Virus record (IMG/VR): IMGVR_UViG_3300023283_000076
Span: 64,001-128,000 of that record
Reading direction: 5' to 3' (one strand)
Origin: a virus
Lineage: Duplodnaviria > Caudoviricetes
DNA length: 64,000 bases
Shown here: positions 3,130-60,483 of the stretch, in pieces
How the letters are laid out: each line of letters begins with the position of its first letter
Numbering within the stretch: the stretch's first letter is position 1
Made by a program: the position numbers and the translations under genes
Notes under the pieces: generated by a model
What the model was told of the DNA's origin: nothing
The model's database searches: none
The model's input: only the letters and a program-made list of their open reading frames with translations

Positions 3130-3519
3130 GTGAAACAAATGAATGACAAAACAAACCCGAATCTAGTAACTCGTAATGGTCAACGAATCCATGTGATTCA
3201 TGATCGTGATAACCGTGCTAGTTATGGATATGTTCTACAACCGTCTGAAGATGGTCAAAATGTTCATGTTCGAGTAGCACGGTCTGTTTGTTCTAAGCAA
3301 GATAGCTTCAACAAGAAAGTTGCTATTCGTGTAGTAAAGAACCGTCTTGATTCTGGTCCTAAAGGTTCCAATCAGCATCGTATGTTTGATTCTACGATTG
3401 CGGTTCCAGTACCATCTAATTCTAATGAATGGCGTGAGCTAGACCAGACTATTGTTAGCCTTGCTAATTTGAAGCTTACTGAACCTGAAAAGATTCGCCG
3501 TTGGCATTCCAGTGAATGA
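3130..3519 (+). CDS. hypothetical protein
   Basis: follows TTGACT..TATAAT promoter and AGGAG. Confidence 0.7.
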   Translation: MKQMNDKTNPNLVTRNGQRIHVIHDRDNRASYGYVLQPSEDGQNVHVRVARSVCSKQDSFNKKVAIRVVKNRLDSGPKGSNQHRMFDSTIAVPVPSNSNEWRELDQTIVSLANLKLTEPEKIRRWHSSE

Positions 3520-10280: not shown

Positions 10281-10406
10281 GGGTGTGTAGCTCAGCGGTT
10301 TAGAGCGTCCGACTGTGGAAGTTGTGGGATACGTAGATCAGGTTCAACTCCTGAAACTTCAAAGGTAATCGGATGGTCGTAGGTTCAAATCCTACCACGC
10401 CCTCCA
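10281..10406 (+). tRNA. tRNA interrupted in the anticodon loop by a 49-nt insert (Asn GTT or Thr GGT after removal)
   Basis: perfect D-arm GCTC/GAGC, TCCGA/TCGGA anticodon stem, GTAGG-TTCAAAT-CCTAC T-arm, GGGTGTG/CACGCCC-TCCA; extra sequence 10317-10365. Confidence 0.85.
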
Positions 10407-10410
10407 ATTT

Positions 10411-10701
10411 TTGACCCCCCTTCATGTTTTAGTTTGCCATACCTATAAAATCGAGAATAGTAATGTTAGTAAACAAACCTTAAAATCTAGATATTTGAAA
10501 CACAGGGAAACTCTTGACATTACTTTCGAATGTGATATAATAGACTGTAAAATATCAAAATGGTATGGTAAAAAATTGAATCTTCAATTAGATCATATCA
10601 ATGGTATAAATAATGATAACAGGTTGAAAAATTTAAGATTACTTTGTCCTAATTGCCATAGTCTAACGGAGACATTTGCAGGGCGAAAGAAATTACAATA
10701 G
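10411..10701 (+). CDS. HNH endonuclease (probably N-terminally truncated)
   Basis: LQLDHINGINNDNRLKNLRLLCPNCHS; internal TTGACA..TATAAT promoter near 10514-10541. Confidence 0.75.
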   Translation: MTPLHVLVCHTYKIENSNVSKQTLKSRYLKHRETLDITFECDIIDCKISKWYGKKLNLQLDHINGINNDNRLKNLRLLCPNCHSLTETFAGRKKLQ

Positions 10702-10786: not shown

Positions 10787-10860
10787 GACAGGATGCCAGA
10801 GTGGTAATGGGCGTGGTTGCAACCCACGAGTCGAGGGTTCGATTCCCTCTCTTGTCTCCA
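10787..10860 (+). tRNA. tRNA-Cys(GCA)
   Basis: CGTGG-TTGCAAC-CCACG, U73, CCA. Confidence 0.92.
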
Positions 10861-10870
10861 AAGTTTCAAT

Positions 10871-10948
10871 GGTGAGTGTGGCGGAACTGGTAGACGCACC
10901 TGACTGTGAATCAGGCACTTGTGGGTTCGAGTCCCATCATTCACCCCA
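10871..10948 (+). tRNA. tRNA-His(GTG) with G-1:C73
   Basis: CCTGA-CTGTGAA-TCAGG, GGTGAGTG/CATTCACC, CCA. Confidence 0.93.
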
Positions 10949-10954
10949 ATTTAA

Positions 10955-11027
10955 ACAAGACTGGTCCTCGCATGACTGTCCCGATAGTAAGAGCAAAGGT
11001 CGTTAATTGATTTGCCACCAGTCTTGT
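10955..11027 (+). ncRNA. structured RNA of unknown family, copy 1
   Basis: 11-bp closing stem ACAAGACTGGT/ACCAGTCTTGT; near-identical copy at 17582-17653. Confidence 0.6.
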
Positions 11028-11043
11028 ATTTTCTTTAAACATA

Positions 11044-11118
11044 AAAATCATCCCGTTCGGGATGATTTTCTATTATTATCTGTTATTTTAATTGAATCAT
11101 CCCGAACGGGTTGATTTC
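11044..11118. terminator. pair of mirror-image hairpin terminators where convergent operons meet
   Basis: AAAATCATCCCG-TT-CGGGATGATTTT and AATCATCCCG-AA-CGGGTTGATTT. Confidence 0.7.
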
Positions 11119-11396
11119 ATGTTTATAATTTAATTACGCATTTCCTAGATAGTACTCTACTGGCGGCGCTTCTACACTAAAATCTGGTTCTTGCATTTTT
11201 TGCTGATTTTCTGCGCACTCATTAAACATTTTAATATGTTTTAATGCGCTGTCTAACGCATCTTTAGTTTTTTTCTTCATCAGTTAAAGGTTCACCATTA
11301 GAAGTACCTTTTCTAATATCAAGACTTTTGGACGCACCAGTAGTAGCCATAGCCATCCAATAATGTGCATAGAGTTCATGCATTTTCTTTTGATCT

Positions 11397-11687
11397 TCAA
11401 TTTTCATTAGTGTATCCTCTCATCCATTCTACGATACCTATAGCCCATTTCTTACCATAATCAATATGGCCATATGCATTACTTTCATATCGTTCAATTA
11501 TATTTAGGGTAGGTTCTTTTAGATTGTCTCTTTTAGCTATTTCACAAGCTTTTCTATAAACAGCAATCCGTTCACGTTTAATCCACTCATTAGAATGATA
11601 TTCTCTATGTTTTGCTACATCTTGAAAAGTATCATACAGTTCTGTAGTAATAGAATCATGTGTCGGTCTGAAAAAATCGTGTTTCAT
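11397..11687 (-). CDS. hypothetical protein
   Basis: part of minus-strand operon 11.1-13.7 kb. Confidence 0.65.
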   Translation of the reverse strand: MKHDFFRPTHDSITTELYDTFQDVAKHREYHSNEWIKRERIAVYRKACEIAKRDNLKEPTLNIIERYESNAYGHIDYGKKWAIGIVEWMRGYTNEN

Positions 11688-11902
11688 TATTTATCTCGCT
11701 GTTGAGCTGGCATAATTGCATCACATACTGCATGAGATGCCCCATTTTCGCATGTGGAAATTGTGACTAAAACAATAATAACCATGATAGGAACTATAAT
11801 TATGAATATCATTGGAAGATATCCAAGACCAGTCATAATATTTCCTACAGTATTGTCCAGAAAACTTCCTAACTGCTTGATATTTTTAAAATTATCACCC
11901 AT
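11687..11902 (-). CDS. small membrane protein
   Basis: hydrophobic segment; TAATG coupling. Confidence 0.6.
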   Translation of the reverse strand: MGDNFKNIKQLGSFLDNTVGNIMTGLGYLPMIFIIIVPIMVIIVLVTISTCENGASHAVCDAIMPAQQRDK

Positions 11903-11973
11903 TTCATTTGTTTCCTGTATTTAATGATTAATTATAATAACATATATATTTGTGGATGTCAATTGGAGGAAGG

Positions 11974-12064
11974 TGGAGGAAGGTGGAGGAATCGAACCCC
12001 TATCGGCTCTTCACCGATACCCCGGATTTCAAGTCCGGTTGCCAGCCACTTAGCGGCACCTTCC
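11974..12064 (-). tRNA. tRNA-Ser(TGA) with 8-bp acceptor / 4-bp T-stem
   Basis: GGAAGGTG/CACCTTCC, GGGG-TTCGATT-CCTC, CCGGA-CTTGAAA-TCCGG, long variable arm, U73-CCA. Confidence 0.85.
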
Positions 12065-12088
12065 AGTATATTGCGTTATTTATAATGA

Positions 12089-12165
12089 TGGTACGGGTGG
12101 TGGGATTCGAACCCACACTGTGCGGATTTTAAGTCCGATCTCTCTGCCAATTGGAGTACACCCGC
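12089..12165 (-). tRNA. tRNA-Leu(TAA), second copy, short variable loop
   Basis: CGGA-CTTAAAA-TCCG, GCGGGTG/CACCCGT, CCA. Confidence 0.88.
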
Positions 12166-12173
12166 TTAAAAAA

Positions 12174-12740
12174 TCAATTCGTATCGTCTTTTTTACCTTT
12201 TAATTCTGGATATTTCTTATACATTTTAGAAACAAAATCATTTATTTCTCTATCTTCCTCTTCATTATAAAGCGGGGCTATTTTATCATTAGTTTTTTGT
12301 TGAAATTCTGTAATAGTATCAATGATATTTAATGCATTAACATGAATATGTTTTTCGACCAGTATTCTATCATATAATTGATTAATTGTGGTATCTAAAT
12401 ATTTACTTTTGTTAAACATGGATATAAGTTTAATAAGCCCATATGCAGACACTAAAACTAATACCAATTGCAATAATGTATTATCGCTACCATTGGTAAA
12501 CATAAGAAATATAAAACTAGAAACAATAATATAAAATATTTCTTTTGTATGATAAAGAATTTTATGTTTGAAAATAAAATCAAATTGATTTTTATGTAAC
12601 ATTGTTTGAGAATGAACCTGAGACCATAAATTATTTTTAATTAACGTGAGTTCTCTATCATTCTTGAGTGCTTCGGAGTTTTCGTTATTCTTTAAATTAT
12701 TTTCAATTGTATTAATTAGTTTCTTAACTCTTTTATTCAT
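12174..12740 (-). CDS. membrane protein with two TM segments
   Basis: hydrophobic central region flanked by charged coiled segments. Confidence 0.65.
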   Translation of the reverse strand: MNKRVKKLINTIENNLKNNENSEALKNDRELTLIKNNLWSQVHSQTMLHKNQFDFIFKHKILYHTKEIFYIIVSSFIFLMFTNGSDNTLLQLVLVLVSAYGLIKLISMFNKSKYLDTTINQLYDRILVEKHIHVNALNIIDTITEFQQKTNDKIAPLYNEEEDREINDFVSKMYKKYPELKGKKDDTN

Positions 12741-12920
12741 TTCAAAACTCTTGTTAAAATAGTGTGTATAAATTGTACCATAAAAATACGAAAAAGCTAA
12801 TAGTGCATAACACTAAACAGCATTCTGGTAAATATTTTTTCATATTAATCCTATTATAAACATTCTAATTATAATTTATAAATTACAATTAGAGCATCCA
12901 ACCTAATCAGTTATTTATTT

Positions 12921-13154
12921 CTACGGCGAAATTTTGTTTCCCATATTATCTAAGATATAAACATGAGGAACATTTGCCATTCTAACTTCATGTTTATAAA
13001 AATCCAACATTTGTATAGATTCAAACATATTTGCCTCATTAACAATTCGATCATCTGAAATAATACGTGATGGATCAAACGAAACATGTGTGCCATATGA
13101 ATGAAATGTATAAGTAGAACGATTTTGTGATCTCTTACGTACAACTCTTTTCAT
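12921..13154 (-). CDS. hypothetical protein
   Basis: AAGGGA SD, co-oriented. Confidence 0.55.
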   Translation of the reverse strand: MKRVVRKRSQNRSTYTFHSYGTHVSFDPSRIISDDRIVNEANMFESIQMLDFYKHEVRMANVPHVYILDNMGNKISP

Positions 13155-13287
13155 GTGTATAGTTCCCTTCTTTTTATAATTTAAGTTAATAATTAAAGTA
13201 CGTAGTTAAGTATGTAATTAACTACTCGTTAAGTATATATGAATACGGGCATGTATGTCAAACCATTAACGTATGCGTTAGCAGTTT

Positions 13288-13701
13288 TTAGTGTTTGATC
13301 CATGCAAAGCCATTATGTGTAATACATATTACGATATGCTTGAACAACCGTAAAATTAAAACTCCTTCATCACAATCTTCAACAATAATTTCACTACTTG
13401 GTATTATAAGGAATTTTTCTTTGATTGTTTTCAATTGTACATTTTCCATAAAATCTGGTGTAAGAATCTTGATCATTTTCTTCAACGCTTTATCAGCATC
13501 TGGTCTTGGAAGAATTGTATCATATCCTGTTCCTACACATTCAGGACATTCCCATTCATCATAAGAGATATCTCCTATATCAGCATTGTCTATATATCCT
13601 AGACCCATACATTCAAGACACTTTTTAGAGTTCAATTTATTTTTTTCTTTATTGTATAGACTAGTGTCTTTTTTCATAAAACACTCCATTTGTAAATCCA
13701 T
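13288..13701 (-). CDS. protein with DnaJ-type Zn-finger motifs
   Basis: CLECMGLG and CPECVGTG (CxxCxGxG). Confidence 0.65.
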   Translation of the reverse strand: MDLQMECFMKKDTSLYNKEKNKLNSKKCLECMGLGYIDNADIGDISYDEWECPECVGTGYDTILPRPDADKALKKMIKILTPDFMENVQLKTIKEKFLIIPSSEIIVEDCDEGVLILRLFKHIVICITHNGFAWIKH

Positions 13702-14073
13702 TGCAAATGATTATCATTCTCTAAAAATTAATATTTAATTTACGAATACGAATCATTCGCATTAACTTGATTTCATATTTCACCCTTTAGTATAACAGAA
13801 AAAAAAATTAAATCAAGGGTTGACATTGTATGTATTATATGGTAAAGGTATTAAAATAGGAATTAAAAAAAGACTTGCATTCTTTTGGTGGATATGATAT
13901 ATTACACATTCGCATTCAAAATATTGGAGTTTAATACATGGAACATCGTTAATGGAGAAATATTCTGAAATGGTGTTTACCGAACCCAAGTAAAATAATT
14001 GTATATTGGTATTGACAACCGTATAATGCTGGTGTATACTGAGCACTCTCAACAATTAAACAGGAGTTAACAC

Positions 14074-14820
14074 ATGAAATTTGTCGTATATGAATCGGAG
14101 TCTGGTTGCAAGTTTCGTTGTACTGAGGCACAGCAAGAGACTCTGAGAAAGCTGGAAACAATCGTTAAAGGCGGTATTGGTACCGTTCATGGTTATACGA
14201 TGAAATCTGGCCGTGTGAAACCCGAAAAGGCCGATATCCAGTTTCTTACTGCATTCTCTACTGAGCGTCTTTATAAGCGTCGAATTGCAGCACTCGAATC
14301 TATCAGTTATGATGACATTGCTGATAATCTTCCAGACAATCCGAAGTTGACGAAACTGACAGAAGATGAGCGCAGAGAAGTGTTCAATACTCGCCGCCAA
14401 AAGGAAATCGAGAGTTATCAGAAGTCTCTTGATGGTGACCGTAGTGATTCGCATCGTCAAGCGCATGATCGGTGTTATTGTAAGATTGGACAAGGTGTTA
14501 AGGTTCACTATCGTACCGAAAAAGATGCTGATGGTATTCGCCAGCCGATTATGGTTAACGGTTTGCCTGTTGTAGAATCTATCATGCTGACGATTCTTGA
14601 AATCAAGCGTAAGGTAATCGAACCGGGCGAGTATAAGAAGGTCAATTCTGGCGCTCCGGTGCTTATCTCTAATACGATTAAGTCTACCATGAATCTTCGA
14701 TCAGTCGGTCTTAAGACTCTTTCACTGAAAGAAGATAACTTCGACAGGCTTGTACTGGACAAGACGGAGTTTTTGCCTGAACAGGTTGAAACCATTCCGG
14801 CTGACTTGTTTATCCGATAA
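14074..14820 (+). CDS. early phage protein of unknown function
   Basis: own TTGACA..TATACT promoter, AGGAG SD, hairpin terminator after stop. Confidence 0.8.
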   Translation: MKFVVYESESGCKFRCTEAQQETLRKLETIVKGGIGTVHGYTMKSGRVKPEKADIQFLTAFSTERLYKRRIAALESISYDDIADNLPDNPKLTKLTEDERREVFNTRRQKEIESYQKSLDGDRSDSHRQAHDRCYCKIGQGVKVHYRTEKDADGIRQPIMVNGLPVVESIMLTILEIKRKVIEPGEYKKVNSGAPVLISNTIKSTMNLRSVGLKTLSLKEDNFDRLVLDKTEFLPEQVETIPADLFIR

Positions 14821-14887
14821 AAGTTTGATATACTCCAAGGGTCAGTCGTTAATCGGCTGACCCATTTCTCAACACTTAGGAGAGCAA

Positions 14888-15193
14888 ATGAATAAACTTC
14901 AATTTAATACTGGTGGTGATGCATATGGTACGAGTTTGAGAGGATACGTCACGACTGTATTTGATCAACTCGTGGAAATTTTCGGGGAGCCTGAGCTTGG
15001 ACCCAATGCCGGTGATGATGACGACAAGGTTACGTGTGAATGGGTAATTACATTTGCCGATGGGGCAGTAGCTACTGTTTATGACTGGAAAACTGACGGC
15101 ACTCCAAAAACCTTGTATAATTGGCATATTGGTGGGATGAAAAACACTGACGTTGTAAATCGTATCAATGCATTGGTAAATAATTGTCTTTAA
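14888..15193 (+). CDS. conserved phage hypothetical protein
   Basis: AGGAG SD; FGEP...KVTCEW...TVYDWK...WHIGG recurring phage pattern. Confidence 0.75.
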   Translation: MNKLQFNTGGDAYGTSLRGYVTTVFDQLVEIFGEPELGPNAGDDDDKVTCEWVITFADGAVATVYDWKTDGTPKTLYNWHIGGMKNTDVVNRINALVNNCL

Positions 15194-15216
15194 TTATAGA
15201 ACATGAGAATTGACAA

Positions 15217-15405
15217 ATGACAGAACGAAAAACATACATTTGTAATCATTGTGGTAGTGATGAAATACTCTTTGATGCATGGGTTGCATGGGATGTTGAA
15301 AATCAATGTATGAGCATCACTACAACAATGGATAAAGGGCATGTATGCGAGAATTGCAATGGTATATCTACTGATCCTATTGAAGTAAATTTAAAGGAAC
15401 TATGA
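15217..15405 (+). CDS. small Zn-ribbon protein
   Basis: CNHCGS ... CENCNG. Confidence 0.65.
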   Translation: MTERKTYICNHCGSDEILFDAWVAWDVENQCMSITTTMDKGHVCENCNGISTDPIEVNLKEL

Positions 15406-15503
15406 TACTGGAACTCTTAAATGTACTCTCGGCAATTGCAGTAATCTTTGTTACAGGGATGATTGCAGGTGCTAAACTCATACTCAAATTGATGAAGAAA
15501 TAA

Positions 15504-15701
15504 ATGGAATTGAATCAATGTCAATATGGTGTTTTGGTTGAAAGCGAACATGGTGAAATTGGTATGATTGTTGGGATCACGAATAATGCAAAAAGCGCAG
15601 AGCTTTCTGTACGCAAGAAAAAAATTCATGCAATTCCAATAGTTCAATGGTCTTATGGAGAAACCAGCAGTATTCATTACGAAAACATCAAGAAACTCTA
15701 A
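15504..15701 (+). CDS. hypothetical protein
   Basis: co-oriented ORF. Confidence 0.5.
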   Translation: MELNQCQYGVLVESEHGEIGMIVGITNNAKSAELSVRKKKIHAIPIVQWSYGETSSIHYENIKKL

Positions 15702-15943
15702 TATTCTATTGAAAGGGGATAAGATAATTTTTATTCCTAACATAGAGCCTTTATCATATATTTTAAATAATGTCAAGAGTTTTTTTAGTTGACTTTTTGA
15801 GTATTCTATGATAATATTTTAAGAGTTTAAATAATGGAAACAATGAGGCAAAGTCATGTGTGTACATAAAGTCACGGTAAATTTAAATGTATTGAACCGT
15901 AAAAAAAGTTGACAATTGTTTCCCCATATGCGATACTACAGTT

Positions 15944-17344
15944 ATGAATGATAATATCCTAGTAGGAAAAGGCGAAGAGTCGCAAGTACATTTACTTGGA
16001 CAATATGCAAATCGTCATGGACTTGTTGCCGGTGCTACTGGTACTGGTAAAACTGTGACCCTGATGATGTTGGCCGAAGGGTTTTCCCGTATGGGTGTAC
16101 CTGTATTCATGGCTGACGTTAAGGGTGATATGGCAGGTTTGGCAATGCAAGGTAACGACAATCCAAAAATTCTCGAACGTGCTGAAAATATCGGTATTGA
16201 TAATTTTTCGTTTAATGGAAATCCTGTATCTTTCTGGGATTTATGGAACAATTCAGGCAATCCAATTAGAACGAGTGTCGAAAGTATCGGTGCCACCTTG
16301 ATGGCTAGAATGCTCGATGTTAGCGATGCTCAAGAAGGTGTATTAGATGTTGCATATCATTATGCAAGAGAACGTAATATTGCACTTAATACACTCAAAG
16401 ATTTTAGAGCTTTGCTGACGTACATGGCACAAAATAGAGAATTTATCAGCACCGAATATGGATTGATAAATTCAAATAGCATTGGAGCTATTCAGCGTCG
16501 ATTGCTCACACTGGAAAACGATGGAATCGATAATTTTTTTGGCACACCTGCATTAGAATTATCGGATTTTATGCGAAATCAAAATGGTAAGGGTATAATT
16601 AACATTCTTTCTGCCGAGAGTTTAATCTTGCGTCCTAGAATGTATTCTACCTTTTTGCTTTGGCTGCTATCAGAGTTGTTTGATAAGATGCCAGAGCTAG
16701 GTGATGTTGACAAACCTGAATTAGTATTTTTCTTTGACGAAGCCCACCTATTATTTGATGATTGTTCAGGTGCATTGCTTCGTAGAGTTGAACAAGTGGT
16801 GAGATTGATTCGTTCCAAGGGTGTAGGTGTATACTTTTGTTCGCAGAACCCTGATGATATTCCTGAGACTGTCCTAGGGCAGCTTGGAAATCGTGTTCAG
16901 CATGCTTTAAGGGCGTTCACGCCTAGAGACCAAAAGGCTGTTAGAGCGGCTGCTGAGACGTTTGTAGAGAATCCTAATTTTGATGTTGGTGATGTTATAA
17001 CCCGTCTAGGCGTTGGTGAAGCATTAACTTCAATGTTAGATGACAAAGGGATTCCGCAACCAGTTCAACGCACAATGATTTCTCCACCGCAATGTCGGCT
17101 TGGTACAATCAGCCATGAAGAGAGAATGCAAATTGTCGATAATGATTCATTGAAAAGAAAATATAGTAACGACAATAATGTAGACACTACTAATAAATAT
17201 GATCCACGGGATGACTTTGATGATACGATTGATTATTGGAACATTGAGCCATCAAAAAATATCAATCCTGAACCAGAGTCACCTGATAATTTTGTAACAC
17301 GGTTTATGAATGAATTTAGAAAAGCATTAATGTTTAAAAATTAA
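15944..17344 (+). CDS. HerA/FtsK-like ATPase of the DUF853 (YjgR) family
   Basis: ANRHGLVAGATGTGKT, ADVKGD, FFFDEAHLLF, RLIRSKGVGVYF, QLGNRVQHALRAFTP. Confidence 0.88.
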   Translation: MNDNILVGKGEESQVHLLGQYANRHGLVAGATGTGKTVTLMMLAEGFSRMGVPVFMADVKGDMAGLAMQGNDNPKILERAENIGIDNFSFNGNPVSFWDLWNNSGNPIRTSVESIGATLMARMLDVSDAQEGVLDVAYHYARERNIALNTLKDFRALLTYMAQNREFISTEYGLINSNSIGAIQRRLLTLENDGIDNFFGTPALELSDFMRNQNGKGIINILSAESLILRPRMYSTFLLWLLSELFDKMPELGDVDKPELVFFFDEAHLLFDDCSGALLRRVEQVVRLIRSKGVGVYFCSQNPDDIPETVLGQLGNRVQHALRAFTPRDQKAVRAAAETFVENPNFDVGDVITRLGVGEALTSMLDDKGIPQPVQRTMISPPQCRLGTISHEERMQIVDNDSLKRKYSNDNNVDTTNKYDPRDDFDDTIDYWNIEPSKNINPEPESPDNFVTRFMNEFRKALMFKN

Positions 17345-17445
17345 TTAAAAACAAATGATCAGAAATATTGTCGAAAAAGTCTTGACAATCTTTGATAAAT
17401 AGATTAGACTGTAGTTGTGATGATAAATCACACATGTAAACAATA

Positions 17446-17558
17446 CGATGAAAAAGCGGTGGACAAGAGTACATCGCGGGGCAACCCTACAGTATCGGCC
17501 ATGCTGATCCGGTGATGGTGACAAAGATACTGTGAGTCGGACGCCAAGCGACCGGCCC
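17446..17558 (+). ncRNA. candidate multi-stem structured RNA
   Basis: CGATG/CATCG, GGG-GCAA-CCC, ACAGTATC/GATACTGT and GTCG/CGGC stems downstream of promoter at 17382-17410. Confidence 0.5.
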
Positions 17559-17581
17559 AAAAAAATTCTCGTTAATAGAAA

Positions 17582-17653
17582 ACAAGACTGGTCCTCGCAT
17601 GACCGTCCCGATAGTAAGAGCAAAGGTCGTTAATTGATTGCCACCAGTCTTGT
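17582..17653 (+). ncRNA. structured RNA of unknown family, copy 2
   Basis: matches 10955-11027 except one T/C change and one T indel. Confidence 0.6.
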
Positions 17654-17919
17654 ATTTTAAAAATGTCCTTTCTTGGGCGGTATATCAGCAACTATAAAAA
17701 GCGCGGGGATGGACAGCCCCTTAATAAATGATATATTAACCCTTTTTCTTTTCACCTATAGGAGAAAAGGCCCGATTCATTTGGGCCTTTTATTTTTCCT
17801 ACACTAGGACCTTTACCATAAAACTGAATGTATTGTCAAGGAAAATAATAATAAATATCCCTTGACCTTTGAACGAATATTCGGTATAGTGTTATACATA
17901 ATTTAAGAAAGGAGTTGCA

Positions 17920-45683: not shown

Positions 45684-46775
45684 TTAGTTTCCTATTGTAT
45701 TTGATTCGTTTATTGTATTATGCGTGTTATTTACTTTAATAAAAGTTGTACGTTTAGGTAGTTCTTTTATTTTATTTGCTCCCACATATGTACAGCAGCT
45801 ACGTATACCACCCAATATATCTTTAATTACAGTTTCAGTTGGTCCAGTTAATGGTATTAAAGCAGTTCTACCCTCACTACTACGATAATCTTTTAACCCA
45901 GTTCCATATTTATCCTGTGCAGTTTTAGATGACATACCATAATATACTCCATAGGTTACTGTTTTTCCATTTTCTGAAACGGTAGTTTTTTTGCAATCAG
46001 CTTCATTAGTACCAGCAAAGAATGAGCCAGACATAATAATATCTGCACCGGCACCAAATGCTTTTGCAAAATCTCCAACGTGAACACACCCACCATCTGA
46101 TATAATATGTCCCCCCAAACCATGGGCAGCGTCAGAACATGCATGTATTGCTGAAAGCTGGGGATACCCAACTCCAGCTTTCAGACGAGTGCTACATACG
46201 GAGCCATTTCCCACGCCTATTTTAACAACATCTGCTCCTGCGAAAATCAATGCTTCAGTCATATCAGGAGTAACTACATTTCCAGCGGTTATGACGGCAT
46301 TCGGAAAATCATCACGTATGCGCTTAATATGATCAACAAACTTTTCAGAATACCCATTGGCAACATCAATCATTATATTGGGTACTTCAGCGCTTAATTC
46401 TTTTCGCAAAAATGCGTTAACATCGTGGAGGATATTATAGGAATCATTATCTATGCCTATAGGAAAAAACATATGATCTAAATAATCATTAATTTTATTT
46501 TCCATTGAACGCAATTTTTTTATCCATTTATCAGTATCATGAAATTTATGTATTGTATATAAACAATTATAATTTTGTAATACATCTGCAACTCCGAATG
46601 TACCACATGTACCCATATTAGAATTCATTATTGGAATAGCGGTTATAGTCTTATTACTATGTTTAAAAGTCAATGATCGTTTAAGTGATACATCCTTTCT
46701 AGATTCTAATGCACTTCTCTTGGGACGTATCAAGACATCTGAAAAATCCAGCTTTACATCTTCTTCTATTCTCAT
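45684..46775 (-). CDS. guaC: GMP reductase
   Basis: MRIEEDVKLDFSDVLIRPKRS, IDVANGYS, GNVVT, GVGNGSVCSTR, GVGYPQLSA, SDGG, YGMSS, YRSSEG. Confidence 0.93.
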   Translation of the reverse strand: MRIEEDVKLDFSDVLIRPKRSALESRKDVSLKRSLTFKHSNKTITAIPIMNSNMGTCGTFGVADVLQNYNCLYTIHKFHDTDKWIKKLRSMENKINDYLDHMFFPIGIDNDSYNILHDVNAFLRKELSAEVPNIMIDVANGYSEKFVDHIKRIRDDFPNAVITAGNVVTPDMTEALIFAGADVVKIGVGNGSVCSTRLKAGVGYPQLSAIHACSDAAHGLGGHIISDGGCVHVGDFAKAFGAGADIIMSGSFFAGTNEADCKKTTVSENGKTVTYGVYYGMSSKTAQDKYGTGLKDYRSSEGRTALIPLTGPTETVIKDILGGIRSCCTYVGANKIKELPKRTTFIKVNNTHNTINESNTIGN

Positions 46776-48694: not shown

Positions 48695-50008
48695 TTGACA
48701 ACTCCCCTCGCTAAAGCAAGGGGATTCTTGTTTCACAGTCCTGTGCATTGCTCCATACAGGAGATTCAGTCTTATTTTGGACTCCACAAGCTAACTCCGT
48801 GTGCCCCACGGTTAAAATATTTTTAGCTGCATTAATATCTCGGTCATGTTCAACATGACACGATTCACAGCTAAATTTACGGACTGAAAGAGGCATTTTT
48901 GAATGCAAATGTCCACAACTGGAGCATGTTTTGGAACTAGGATACCATCGATTGACTTGATGGAATGTTCTGCCATACCATTCAGATTTATATTTCAGCA
49001 TGTCTACGAATGTTGACCATGCTGCATCTGAAATGGCTTTGCTCAATTTGCGGTTTTGAATCATGTTTTTAACAGCTAAGTCTTCTAATATGATCACTTG
49101 GTTCTCGTTGACAATATTAGAAGACAGTTTATGCAGAAAATCTTTCCTGCAATCAGCTATTTTAGCATGGACTCGTGCCACTTTCAGTTTTTGTTTCTTG
49201 AAGTTTTCACTTCCTTTTTGTTTCTTGCTTAAACGTCTTTGTTCAATTTTTAATTTCTGTGCATATTTTCTGGTGTTTCTCAGATTAGCAATCTTGTTTC
49301 CATTTGAATCAATCAGAAAATGTGTCAACCCAAGATCAATTCCAATCTTGTTTTGATTGACAGGTTTCAATTTCATGTCCTTCTCACCCTGAATAGAGAC
49401 GAAATATCTGTCAGCACTATCTTTTGAAACTGTGATTGAATTAATTTTTGACAAATCTAAGTCTCTTGACCATTTTATTTCTAATGGTTCTTTAGACTTT
49501 GCGATGTATAGCTTTCCGTCTTTAAAACGGAATCCACTATTGGTTAATCGAAATGATTGCTTTTTATGTCTATTTTTAAATTTTGGATATTTGGCTCTTC
49601 CCTTAAAGAAGTTAGAAAATGCAGTATCTAGATTGCGTAGTCCTTGTTGTAATGCCACATTACTTACATCATACAACCAGTCCAGTTCTTTTTTTAGCTC
49701 TGTGAGTTTTGCGCTCGTTTGATTATAATTAATTGAATTGTTATTTTGGTAATACTCATTGTGTCGGTATTCCAAAATATTGTTGTAGACAAATCGCACA
49801 CAGCCAAATGTCCGAGCGAGAAGTGTTTTCTGCTCATTGGTCGGATACACTCTATATTTGTATGCGATTTGTTGATTCAATTAATTGTTGCATATTTTTG
49901 TATTATACATCTATTTAGTAAATTTGACAAGTAGTAAATACTTTTGTCATATTATATTCTTTTAGAGTTTAACCCCTCCCTTAAGGAAGGGGTCTGTTTG
50001 TTTGGTTG
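48695..50008 (-). mobile_element. IS200/IS605-family element, TnpB only (IS1341-like)
   Basis: TTGAT target before left end CAAC; hairpins CCCCTTCC-TTAA-GGGAGGGG and CCCCTTGC-TTTA-GCGAGGGG; right end TCAA. Confidence 0.88.
48711..49880 (-). CDS. tnpB: TnpB RNA-guided endonuclease
   Basis: AYKYRVYP HTH, IGIDLGL, ILEDL, SKTCSSCG..CESC, DRDINAAKNI. Confidence 0.95.
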   Translation of the reverse strand: MNQQIAYKYRVYPTNEQKTLLARTFGCVRFVYNNILEYRHNEYYQNNNSINYNQTSAKLTELKKELDWLYDVSNVALQQGLRNLDTAFSNFFKGRAKYPKFKNRHKKQSFRLTNSGFRFKDGKLYIAKSKEPLEIKWSRDLDLSKINSITVSKDSADRYFVSIQGEKDMKLKPVNQNKIGIDLGLTHFLIDSNGNKIANLRNTRKYAQKLKIEQRRLSKKQKGSENFKKQKLKVARVHAKIADCRKDFLHKLSSNIVNENQVIILEDLAVKNMIQNRKLSKAISDAAWSTFVDMLKYKSEWYGRTFHQVNRWYPSSKTCSSCGHLHSKMPLSVRKFSCESCHVEHDRDINAAKNILTVGHTELACGVQNKTESPVWSNAQDCETRIPLL

Positions 50009-60320: not shown

Positions 60321-60396
60321 TTGACTTTCCCCTTCATTAATGAAGGGGATTTCTAATTCATCGAAACTTACATTGTTTTTGATAAATGGGAGGGGA

Positions 60397-60468
60397 TGCC
60401 GTTGAAAGGATTCGAGCCTTTAACTTTTTCCTATCAAGGAACTGCTCTGCCAATTGAGCTACAACGGC
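60397..60468 (-). pseudogene. degenerate tRNA-Ile(GAT)
   Basis: GCCGTTG/CAACGGC acceptor and D-arm intact; 6-nt anticodon loop TTGATA, T-loop CTCGAAT, no CCA. Confidence 0.7.
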
Positions 60469-60483
60469 AATTTATATTATTTA

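What the first reader, a model, noticed from the sequence alone, without database searches (positions are those of the whole stretch)
10955..17653. Duplicated 72-73 nt structured RNA in two RNA operons
Near-identical copies lie 6 nt after tRNA-His (10955-11027) and after another structured RNA (17582-17653). The fold has an 11-bp closing stem, an inner ATGAC(C/T)/GGTCGT stem in which the C/T difference preserves pairing, and a possible GCAA(A)/(T)TTGC pseudoknot whose T indel is tolerated. It contains TCCTCGC, reminiscent of the HDV-like L3 loop. I cannot assign a family. Inference: a processing ribozyme, a protein sponge or an antitoxin mimic.
Basis: partly seen in the sequence, partly recalled or inferred. 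Interest (0 to 1): 0.65.

Follow-up and report, generated by a model that had tools for sequence, protein, structure and literature searches.

The report
New double-pseudoknot RNA in phage tRNA arrays
The two near-identical 72-73-base elements are genes for a small, tightly knotted RNA from a widespread family found almost only in phages, usually sitting among their tRNA genes like an extra tRNA; I found it in neither Rfam 15 nor the papers searched, and its job is unknown.

Summary
The copies at 10955-11027 and 17582-17653 differ by one C/T and one T indel.

They belong to a large RNA family. I found 132 distinct instances in uncultured phage and metagenome contigs. Cultured carriers are Rhodococcus phages Francesca and Dorin, Microbacterium phage Zooman, three Sulfitobacter phages, and a tRNA array in Salipiger mucosus.

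The "HDV L3-like" CCUCG is one strand of a helix that pairs with CGAUA inside the inner loop. The strand order is P1-P3-P2-P3'-P4-P2'-P4'-P1', a stem-closed double pseudoknot. Compensatory changes support all four helices in two independent alignments. In both, about 92% of cells are paired against 75% in shuffles, and no shuffle reached the observed covariation.

It matches no Rfam 15 family. It is not HDV-like, not a tRNA and not a terminator. It always lies in the sense of neighbouring tRNAs, often 0-15 nt from one on either side. It has no fixed tRNA type, neighbour gene or conserved phage protein partner.

Function is untested. I rank a discrete, stable, trans-acting RNA first (about 0.35) and a new self-cleaving ribozyme second (about 0.2). 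The scan's sequence look-up showed only a note on this same stretch.

The parts
10955..11027 (+). Copy A of the double-pseudoknot RNA (73 nt with the full 11-bp stem), the last gene of a tRNA operon
   Evidence: Sequence. CM hits: R1 88.9 bits, R2 74.3 bits, E 9e-19. It starts 6 nt after tRNA-His.
10955..10965 (+). Copy A, P1 5' strand (ACAAGACUGGU). It pairs with 11017-11027.
   Evidence: All seven inner P1 pairs show changes on both sides in relatives (99.4% of cells paired, 96.0%). The stem is 7-22 bp long across the family.
10966..10970 (+). Copy A, P3 5' strand (CCUCG). UCG pairs with CGA at 10982-10984. C10967 faces U10985 as a conserved C.U. C10966 faces A10986.
   Evidence: In one search, pair 10/26 is UA 38, CG 6, GC 1 and pair 11/25 is CG 37, UA 8. 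In one search the same pairs are UA 36, CG 25, GC 3 and CG 40, UA 18, AU 4, GC 2.
10972..10977 (+). Copy A, P2 5' strand (AUGACU, core GACU). It pairs with 10998-11003 (GGUCGU).
   Evidence: Core pair 16/43 is GC 41, AU 4 and GC 60, AU 3. The outer two pairs are not conserved.
10982..10986 (+). Copy A, P3 3' strand (CGAUA), lying inside the P2 loop. This makes the first pseudoknot.
10987..10992 (+). Copy A, conserved unpaired RUAAGA segment (GUAAGA)
   Evidence: UAAGA is invariant in alignments A5 and A6. It is also present in all 16 members that were found through the other half of the motif alone.
10993..10996 (+). Copy A, P4 5' strand (GCAA). It pairs with 11012-11015 (UUGC). This makes the second pseudoknot.
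   Evidence: In one search, pair 35/57 is GC 29, GU 12, AU 2; pair 36/56 is CG 39, UA 6; pair 37/55 is AU 39, GC 5. One search gives similar counts.
10998..11003 (+). Copy A, P2 3' strand (GGUCGU)
11004..11011 (+). Copy A, A-rich linker UAAUUGAU (family consensus NNWAAU plus 1-4 nt). It is 8 nt here and 7 nt in copy B, because the single T indel falls in the T run 11011-11013.
   Evidence: AA is invariant. One relative tolerates an insertion of about 43 nt at this site (L086).
11012..11015 (+). Copy A, P4 3' strand (UUGC), followed by the invariant C11016
11017..11027 (+). Copy A, P1 3' strand (ACCAGUCUUGU)
17582..17653 (+). Copy B (72 nt). P1 17582-17592/17643-17653; P3 17593-17597/17609-13; P2 17599-17604/17625-30; P4 17620-23/17638-41.
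   Evidence: Sequence. CM hits: R1 96.2 bits, R2 80.7 bits, E 1e-20.
10514..10541 (+). Promoter-like site (TTGACA-16-TATAAT, 12 of 12, with TG) that could drive tRNA-Cys, tRNA-His and copy A
   Evidence: Consensus scan only. Function not shown.
10787..10948 (+). tRNA-Cys (10787-10860) and tRNA-His (10872-10948), directly upstream of copy A on the same strand
   Evidence: ARAGORN and Rfam tRNA.
11044..11069 (+). Intrinsic-terminator-like hairpin plus T run, 17 nt after copy A. This is the operon's likely terminator.
17382..17410 (+). Promoter-like site (TTGACA-17-TAGACT) ahead of the RNA-only unit that holds copy B
   Evidence: Consensus scan only.
17440..17575 (+). Unassigned structured region ('RNA X') between that promoter and copy B
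   Evidence: Fold -44.3 kcal/mol, z -2.6. No Rfam match. No look-alike in the loci held.
17765..17791 (+). Intrinsic-terminator-like hairpin plus T run that closes the unit holding copy B

Best explanation
**What it is (shown).** Each copy is a gene for a small non-coding RNA of an uncatalogued family found almost only in phages. A conserved core of about 50 nt, plus the seven inner pairs of a closing stem, makes a 62-nt unit. The full stem is 7-22 bp long. The RNA folds into a stem-closed double pseudoknot with strand order P1-P3-P2-P3'-P4-P2'-P4'-P1'.

- P3 (CUCG/CGA) and P2 (GACC/GGUC) form one pseudoknot.
- P2 and P4 (GCAA/UUGC) form the second.
- The conserved joining strands are GUYC, RUAAGA and WAAU.

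**How it is made (inferred from position).** It is read in the sense of the tRNA genes, as one more unit of tRNA or small-RNA operons. It stands at tRNA-like distances from its neighbours. The nucleases that trim the flanking tRNAs would therefore release it as a discrete, tRNA-sized RNA protected by its closing stem.

**How it works (inferred, my estimate about 0.35).** The freed RNA acts in trans through its invariant pseudoknot core. It needs no phage protein, and it binds something common to very different bacteria, most plausibly a part of the tRNA or translation apparatus. The stated confidence applies to this mechanism. That the element is a real RNA with this fold I hold at about 0.95.
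For: - **Duplication and fold.**
- **Family size.** This gives 132 distinct instances.
- **Covariation.** On a MAFFT alignment not fitted to the structure (A6), 92.9% of cells are paired versus 75.8% in shuffles, 15 of 21 pairs change on both sides, and the score is 0.518 versus 0.164, reached by 0 of 500 shuffles. Sliding the partners gives at most 54% paired. An independent metagenome set (A7) gives 92.2% versus 75.0% and 0.520 versus 0.176.
- **Strand.** About 7% of cells are G.U pairs, which would be A.C on the other strand. Only 3 of 132 instances have an opposite-strand tRNA nearby.
- **tRNA-like slot.** 67 of 132 have a same-strand tRNA within 300 nt. 28 have one 15 nt or less upstream, 27 have one 15 nt or less downstream and 8 have both. 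No tRNA type is preferred after correction.
- **Own transcription units.** Promoter-like sites and terminators bracket both window copies.
- **Precedent.** T4 rnaC and rnaD are small stable RNAs at the end of the T4 tRNA cluster.
- **No phage partner.** No neighbour protein family recurs in more than 11 of about 85 IMG/VR and genome loci. Sulfitobacter phage pCB2047-C shares no protein with the window's genome at E<=1e-3.
- **Host breadth.** Carriers infect Actinomycetota (Rhodococcus, Microbacterium) and Alphaproteobacteria (Sulfitobacter). Other carriers are MAG contigs labelled Bacteroidota and Acidobacteriota.
Against: - No transcript, end or partner has been observed.
- Nothing in the sequence points to a particular host target. 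Resemblances to rRNA segments and to T4 rnaD, seen by eye, did not hold up.
- A core this conserved, with two pseudoknots and many fixed unpaired bases, fits a ribozyme or a ligand aptamer as well. Those are the usual outcomes for such RNAs according to Weinberg et al. 2017 (PMC5737381).
- The pattern searches required parts of the core, so invariance is somewhat overstated. The cross-check supports real conservation. However, Zooman, which was found by BLAST, deviates in the UAAGAG block.
Confidence: 0.35

Rival explanations
1. It is a new class of small self-cleaving ribozyme. The double-pseudoknot core cuts its own backbone at an internal site. This segments polycistronic tRNA or small-RNA precursors, or late-operon leaders, without host nucleases.
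For: - The core is compact, pseudoknotted and highly conserved, with many fixed unpaired bases. It is present in phages of several host phyla and tied to no gene. These are the criteria said to mark 'biochemically sophisticated' RNAs (PMC5737381).
- There is a precedent for ribozymes in phage tRNA arrays: theta (HDV-like) ribozymes (PMC10879173).
- There is no conserved phage protein partner.
- Three genomes carry two copies each.
Against: - It matches none of the ribozyme models in Rfam 15, for three variants.
- The motif is enclosed by a variable 7-22-bp stem and lies at variable distance on either side of tRNAs. A cut would therefore be internal. It would not make a tRNA end, and it would leave a paired trailer on the upstream tRNA.
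- No circular permutations were seen among the 132 instances.
Confidence: 0.2
2. It is a small-molecule or ion aptamer. It would be either a riboswitch-like sensor that changes processing or read-through of the operon, or an abundant RNA 'sponge' for a metabolite or signalling nucleotide.
For: - Its size and H-type pseudoknot architecture, with A-rich linkers, resemble small aptamers. This comparison rests on my own knowledge of the SAM-II, preQ1 and fluoride classes.
- Conservation is very high across hosts.
- Some copies lie shortly upstream of ORFs, for example L004, about 30 nt before a start codon.
Against: - No gene family is consistently downstream.
- 27 instances have a tRNA 1-15 nt downstream, which leaves no room for an expression platform.
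- The T run after P1 is not conserved: at most 46% T at any position.
- No Rfam riboswitch matches.
Confidence: 0.12
3. It is a passive structural element with no specific partner. Possibilities are a spacer or insulator between tRNAs, an exonuclease block, an RNase III or RNase E processing signal, or a terminator-like hairpin.
For: - It has a long closing stem of up to 22 bp.
- The 5' flank is mildly A-rich and the 3' flank mildly T-rich.
- Copy A sits at the 3' end of its operon.
Against: - A spacer or hairpin signal does not need about 25 fixed bases and two covarying pseudoknots kept across phages of different phyla.
- The element is mid-array in many loci, with tRNAs on both sides in 8 instances.
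- Canonical terminators follow both window copies.
Confidence: 0.1
4. The conservation is at DNA level. The element would be a homing-endonuclease target or the footprint of a small mobile DNA spreading among phage tRNA islands, and not an RNA with a function.
For: - HNH and GIY-YIG endonuclease genes are the commonest neighbours, in 9 and 11 loci.
- Within-genome copies are near-identical, including the stem. This holds for the window and for L045/L047.
- Identity is 85-89% between phages as distant as this AT-rich jumbo phage and Rhodococcus phage Francesca.
Against: - Compensatory double changes occur in all four helices.
- G.U pairs make sense on one strand only.
- Co-orientation with tRNAs is strict.
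- The stem sequence is free to vary between genomes while pairing is kept. Mobility may add to the spread, but it does not explain these features.
Confidence: 0.04
5. It is an HDV-like (theta-type) ribozyme, as hinted by the TCCTCGC string.
For: - It has a string similar to HDV L3, and copy A lies a few nt after a tRNA, like theta ribozymes.
- As a double pseudoknot it shares a general feature with HDV.
Against: - CUCG is a helix strand that covaries with CGA(U).
- The helix order a b c b' d c' d' a' differs from HDV's order P1 P2 P3 P3' P1' P4 P4' P2'.
- Mapping it as a circular permutation fails, because there is no room for P3 around the P1.1-like strand.
- No HDV-family model matches at E<=10.
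- The element lies upstream of tRNAs as often as downstream.
Confidence: 0.02

Closest known systems
Phage T4 small stable RNAs, species 1 (rnaC, 139 nt) and species 2 (rnaD, 119 nt)
   Same: Both are non-tRNA RNAs encoded on the tRNA strand within a few nt of tRNA genes in a phage tRNA cluster. They are annotated as small stable RNAs in the T4 record. To my knowledge their function is also unknown.
   Different: - There is no sequence or structure relation. Model R1 with filters off finds nothing at rnaC or rnaD.
- The T4 RNAs are longer and carry tRNA-like T-arm or CCA features. This RNA has neither.
- The T4 RNAs are known from T4-type phages. This family spans phages of several host phyla.
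Theta ribozymes (minimal HDV-like ribozymes next to phage tRNAs; Kienbeck et al. 2024, PMC10879173)
   Same: Both are small double-pseudoknotted RNAs embedded in phage tRNA regions, within a few nt of a tRNA, in uncultured Caudoviricetes.
   Different: - The helix order is different.
- There is no P1 that starts at a cleavage site, and no L3/P1.1 or J4/2 arrangement.
- This RNA lies on either side of tRNAs, whereas the theta cleavage site lies within about 5 nt of the associated tRNA.
- Catalysis is not shown here.
GOLLD (RF01998) and ROOL (RF03087) large ornate RNAs
   Same: Both are phage and prophage RNAs often located beside tRNA genes and possibly co-transcribed with them, with function unknown (PMC5737381; PMC12286853).
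   Different: They are roughly ten times larger (ROOL averages 581 nt) and form multimeric assemblies. This RNA is a 62-nt unit with far higher sequence conservation. No Rfam model matches it.
Small pseudoknotted self-cleaving ribozymes of phage-rich metagenomes (twister, pistol, hatchet)
   Same: They share small size, a closing stem, pseudoknots, many fixed unpaired bases, and occurrence in phages without a fixed gene partner.
   Different: No match to their Rfam models. As I recall it, twister's loop strands pair in the opposite order. No cleavage data exist for this RNA.

Membership tests
HDV-like / theta ribozymes | Nested double pseudoknot with strand order P1-P2-P3-L3-P3'-P1'-P4-P4'-P2' | tested here: not met
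   The covariation-supported order is P1-P3-P2-P3'-P4-P2'-P4'-P1'. Treating the closing stem as an opened P4 leaves no room for P3.
HDV-like / theta ribozymes | An unpaired L3 loop (UCCUCGC-like) whose C residues form P1.1 with J1/4 | tested here: not met
   CUCG is a helix strand paired with CGA(U) and covaries with it: UA/CG/GC and CG/UA/AU/GC.
HDV-like / theta ribozymes | Match to the family's covariance models | tested here: not met
   No HDV-family hit at E<=10 on the element alone or on two variants.
HDV-like / theta ribozymes | Self-cleavage at the 5' end of P1, dependent on the J4/2 cytosine | not testable with these tools
   This needs an in vitro cleavage assay.
Any Rfam 15 family | A score at or near a family's gathering threshold | tested here: not met
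   Only tRNAs reach threshold in the window. The best hit on the element is HOTTIP_2 at 2.6 bits, E 5.7.
tRNA / tRNA-like RNA | Cloverleaf with T arm, and a 3' CCA or discriminator context | tested here: not met
   ARAGORN and RF00005 do not call it. The flanks are not conserved and carry no CCA.
Intrinsic terminator | G+C-rich hairpin with a short loop followed directly by a conserved U tract at an operon end | tested here: not met
   - The stem encloses a structured core of about 50 nt.
- T frequency after the stem is at most 46%.
- 27 instances have a tRNA 1-15 nt downstream.
- Separate terminators follow both window copies.
Riboswitch (cis-regulatory aptamer) | Consistent position in the 5' UTR of a functionally coherent gene set, with an expression platform | tested here: not met
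   The largest neighbour families are homing endonucleases and T4-like gp33, gp59 and gp32, each in at most 11 of about 85 loci. Half the instances sit in tRNA arrays.
Riboswitch (cis-regulatory aptamer) | Specific ligand binding | not testable with these tools
   This needs in-line probing or ITC.
Type III antitoxin RNA (ToxI-like) or its phage mimic | Tandem repeats of about 34-36 nt next to an endoribonuclease toxin gene | tested here: not met
   The two copies are single units 6.6 kb apart. Other loci hold one copy each. No recurrent toxin-like neighbour was found.
T4 rnaC / rnaD | Sequence or structure similarity to the T4 RNAs | tested here: not met
   An R1 search of the T4 tRNA region with filters off finds nothing at 70908-71171.
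T4 rnaC / rnaD | A non-tRNA stable RNA encoded in a phage tRNA operon | tested here: inconclusive
   The genomic position is met.

The most novel reading that the evidence does not exclude
The element is the founding example of a new class of natural small self-cleaving ribozyme. It would have a stem-closed double pseudoknot unlike any known class and would be spread through phage tRNA and small-RNA operons across many host phyla.
Probability: 0.2. Interest if true: 0.9.

Novelty: categorically new. Interest (0 to 1): 0.72.

Why it matters
Few small natural RNAs combine two pseudoknots, about 25 nearly fixed bases and a distribution across phages of unrelated bacteria. RNAs with those properties have usually turned out to be ribozymes, ligand sensors or parts of core machinery.

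This one is only 62 nt, so it suits biochemistry and structure determination. It also occurs in cultured, genetically tractable phage-host pairs: Rhodococcus equi with Francesca or Dorin, Microbacterium foliorum with Zooman, and Sulfitobacter CB2047 lysogens.

It adds a well-defined member to the poorly understood set of non-tRNA RNAs that large phages express with their tRNAs (T4 species 1 and 2, GOLLD, ROOL, theta ribozymes). Learning its partner or activity would bear on what phage tRNA islands do beyond supplying codons. A family model would also let annotators stop leaving these gaps blank.

Tried and rejected
- **HDV-like reading.** Rejected on helix order and covariation. A circular-permutation mapping (closing stem as an opened P4) also fails, because no P3 fits.
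- **rRNA resemblances.** I compared the core by eye with the sarcin-ricin loop, the 16S h44 decoding strand, H69 and the 16S 540-560 region. The matches are short, the alternative register conflicts with the G16-C43 to A-U covariation, and part of the similarity is specific to Proteobacteria. Dropped.
- **T4 rnaD.** It shares the blocks GUUCC, GUAAG, GUUAAUA and UUGC in order. However, the helices do not map and the CM finds nothing. Treated as chance.
- **Shared GGACAGCCC downstream.** It occurs after the window copy B, the Sulfitobacter copies and L080 only, that is 3 distinct loci of about 85. In the window it overlaps a promoter-like -35 box. Not pursued.
- **tRNA-Lys adjacency.** 10 of 61 adjacent tRNAs against an 8% background gives raw p 0.02. 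This is not significant over 18 tRNA types.
- **Partner protein by neighbourhood.** None recurs. No protein is shared between pCB2047-C and this genome, apart from a spurious ORF antisense to the element itself.
- **Literature.** A search by sequence string found only an unrelated PCR primer. Keyword searches found no description. The 10,006-candidate phage RNA catalogue (PMC10690425) has no supplements held, so I cannot exclude that the motif is among its unnamed candidates.
- **Chance pattern matches.** Hits in coding regions (L007, L009, L017, L021, L026-L043 and others) were discarded after inspection and CM scoring.

Full report
**1. Observation**

The window is part of a 270,653-bp IMG/VR virus record. 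It is an AT-rich jumbo phage with 18 tRNA genes in the window.

The two elements are at 10955-11027 and 17582-17653. They are identical from two bases before the stem to the TATTTT after it, except for T10977 versus C17604 and one extra T in copy A. The whole genome holds only these two copies.

- **Copy A** begins 6 nt after tRNA-His. It is the last unit of a run comprising a consensus-perfect promoter-like site (10514-10541), tRNA-Cys, tRNA-His, the element, and a terminator-like hairpin at 11044-11069.
- **Copy B** lies in an RNA-only unit: promoter-like site 17382-17410, a structured region of about 130 nt, the element, then a terminator-like hairpin at 17765-17791.

**2. A large family restricted almost entirely to phages**

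- BLAST against cultured phages found the same core, unannotated, in Rhodococcus phages Francesca and Dorin. There it sits inside a tRNA array, a few nt before tRNA-Lys.
- It is also in three Sulfitobacter phages and in Microbacterium phage Zooman, 2 nt before the first tRNA of an array.
- Pattern scans followed by two covariance models recovered it in about 85 IMG/VR and genome loci.
Together these give 132 instances with distinct context.
- Only 9 pattern hits occur in one genome each of 185,579 prokaryotic species, and 4 of them are confirmed by the model. Three are MAG contigs. The fourth is a tRNA array in Salipiger mucosus DSM 16094.

No Rfam 15 family matches the window copy or two divergent variants, even at E<=10.

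**3. Structure**

Relatives show four helices in the order P1-P3-P2-P3'-P4-P2'-P4'-P1'.

- **P1** is the closing stem. It is 7-22 bp long and free in sequence, except for the inner G-C, G-C and a frequent U.G.
Only GACC/GGUC is conserved, with G-C to A-U exchanges.
It also occurs as GCGA/UCGC, GUAA/UUAC and GUGA/UCAU. In one subgroup it has two Watson-Crick pairs plus a tandem G.A (GCGA/GAGC, AAGA/GAUU).
- **P3** is new. It occurs as CUUG/CAAG, CCUG/CAG, CCCG/CGGG, ACCG/CGGU, UCUG/CAGA and ACAG/CUGU.

| Alignment | Sequences | Cells paired | Paired in shuffles | Covariation score | Shuffled score | Shuffles reaching observed |
|---|---|---|---|---|---|---|
| A6 (MAFFT, not fitted to structure) | 45 | 92.9% | 75.8% | 0.518 | 0.164 | 0 of 500 |
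| A7 (independent metagenome set) | 64 | 92.2% | 75.0% | 0.520 | 0.176 | 0 of 500 |

In A6, 15 of 21 pairs change on both sides, and sliding the partners gives at most 54% paired. About 7% of cells are G.U, which fixes the strand as the tRNA strand.

The conserved unpaired segments are GUYC, RUAAGA, a single A, WAAU and a single C.

A variant group (GUUCC, with one more P3 pair and AGG before UAAGAG) and an insertion of about 43 nt in the P2/P4 linker (L086) show where the fold tolerates change.

One caveat is that the scans required parts of the core, so invariance is inflated. Against that, members found through one half of the motif always carry the other half: 16 of 16, and all full-length cases the other way. 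Zooman, found by BLAST, departs in the UAAGAG block.

**4. Context**

- The element is always in the sense of nearby tRNAs. Only 3 of 132 instances have an opposite-strand tRNA within 1.5 kb.
- 67 of 132 have a same-strand tRNA within 300 nt. 28 have one 15 nt or less upstream, 27 have one 15 nt or less downstream, and 8 have both.
- These are the spacings of tRNAs within arrays, so the element occupies a tRNA-like slot.
- No tRNA type is preferred after correction.
- The flanks are not conserved and carry no CCA.
- Other copies lie outside tRNA regions. In the temperate, tRNA-less Sulfitobacter phage pCB2047-C, the element sits in a 510-nt gap between the last early-region gene and the packaging genes. 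In T4-like contigs it lies upstream of gp33-, gp59- and gp32-like genes.
- No neighbour protein family recurs in more than 11 loci. The commonest are GIY-YIG and HNH homing endonucleases.
- pCB2047-C and the window's genome share no protein at E<=1e-3. A conserved phage protein partner is therefore unlikely.
- Copies within one genome resemble each other more than copies between genomes, including the stem. This holds for the window, for L045/L047 and, less so, for L006/L013. It points to recent duplication or gene conversion.

**5. What it is not**

- **Not HDV-like or theta.** The helix order differs, CUCG is paired, and no model matches.
- **Not a tRNA or tRNA-like RNA**.
- **Not a terminator.** Many copies are mid-array, the T run is not conserved, and separate terminators follow both window copies.
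- **Not a ToxI-type antitoxin mimic.** There are no tandem repeats and no toxin neighbour.
- **Not related to T4 rnaC or rnaD**.
- **Not a typical riboswitch.** There is no coherent downstream gene set and no room for an expression platform.

**6. Mechanism**

The following is shown: a real RNA-level constraint on a four-helix double pseudoknot, the strand, co-location with tRNAs, host breadth, and the absence of a conserved phage partner.

The following is inferred: the element is co-transcribed with tRNAs, and the nucleases that trim its neighbours free it as a stem-closed, tRNA-sized RNA, as for T4 species 1 and 2.

From there two readings compete.

- **A stable trans-acting RNA (about 0.35).** It would bind something common to very different bacteria. 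The variable closing stem and the variable placement on either side of tRNAs suit a free-standing stable RNA.
- **A self-cleaving ribozyme (about 0.2).** This fits the general profile of small, highly conserved pseudoknotted phage RNAs, and it has the theta-ribozyme precedent. However, a cut inside such a motif would not create tRNA ends, and it would leave a base-paired trailer on the upstream tRNA.

The lower-ranked readings are an aptamer or sponge (0.12), a passive structural element (0.1) and a DNA-level element (0.04).

**7. Novelty**

I found no description by sequence string or keywords. I cannot exclude that the motif is one of the unnamed candidates in the phage RNA catalogue PMC10690425.

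Earlier notes of this scan describe other uncatalogued RNAs in phage tRNA arrays, including in this genome. The sequence look-up reported look-alike stretches in 3 windows of 2 genomes, but it showed only a note on this same stretch.

I class it as a new RNA family with a fold of its own. Its kind of genomic setting has precedents, but its function is open.

Noticed in passing
window 17440-17575 (+): A region of about 130 nt lies between a promoter-like site (17382-17410) and copy B. It folds better than shuffles (-44.3 kcal/mol, z -2.6), matches no Rfam family and has no look-alike in the loci held. It may be another small RNA of the same transcription unit.
   Followed up: partly
window 10281-10406 (+): Rfam's tRNA model spans 123 nt here (10281-10403), while ARAGORN calls a 96-nt tRNA-Leu(caa) at 10311-10406. 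The two disagree, which suggests a tRNA gene with an insert.
   Followed up: no
window 10514-10541 (+), inside the HNH ORF 10411-10701: A 12-of-12 sigma-70 consensus (TTGACA-16-TATAAT with TG) lies inside a small HNH endonuclease ORF. It would start the transcript that carries tRNA-Cys, tRNA-His and copy A.
   Followed up: no
window 60394-60469 (-): ARAGORN reports a tRNA with an undetermined, two-base anticodon ('ga'). Rfam scores the same stretch as a tRNA at 58 bits.
   Followed up: no
window 48711-49880 (-), 15944-17344 (+), 45684-46775 (-): Three genes were identified in this stretch of the jumbo phage: a TnpB/IS605 OrfB-type protein (Cas12f1-like TNB domain), a HerA-like helicase directly upstream of the copy-B unit, and an IMPDH/GMP-reductase-family gene.
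   Followed up: no
L045 11920-11981 and L047 3433-3494 (one contig); L006 and L013 (one contig); window copies A and B: In all three genomes with two copies, the copies share the closing-stem sequence and are far more alike than copies from different genomes, while their flanks differ. This suggests recent duplication, gene conversion or copy-and-paste mobility of the element.
   Followed up: partly
L086 8352-8456 (+): A family member carries an insertion of about 43 nt, with its own hairpin and a second AAGGTCAT, in the linker between P2 and P4. This marks a site where the fold tolerates extra RNA.
   Followed up: no
L114 2013-7999 (Salipiger mucosus DSM 16094, scaffold9): A cultured bacterium's assembly holds an array of 11 tRNA genes in 8 kb, with the element at 3202-3263 directly after tRNA-Cys. 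It shows no protein similarity to the Sulfitobacter phage. Whether this is a prophage, a plasmid or a chromosomal tRNA island was not examined.
   Followed up: partly
L002 2340-2880 (Sulfitobacter phage pCB2047-C 35103-35612): A 510-nt gene-free gap before the packaging genes of a temperate phage holds the element plus further G+C-rich hairpins. None of it matches Rfam. The gap may encode more than one RNA, or be a late-operon leader.
   Followed up: partly
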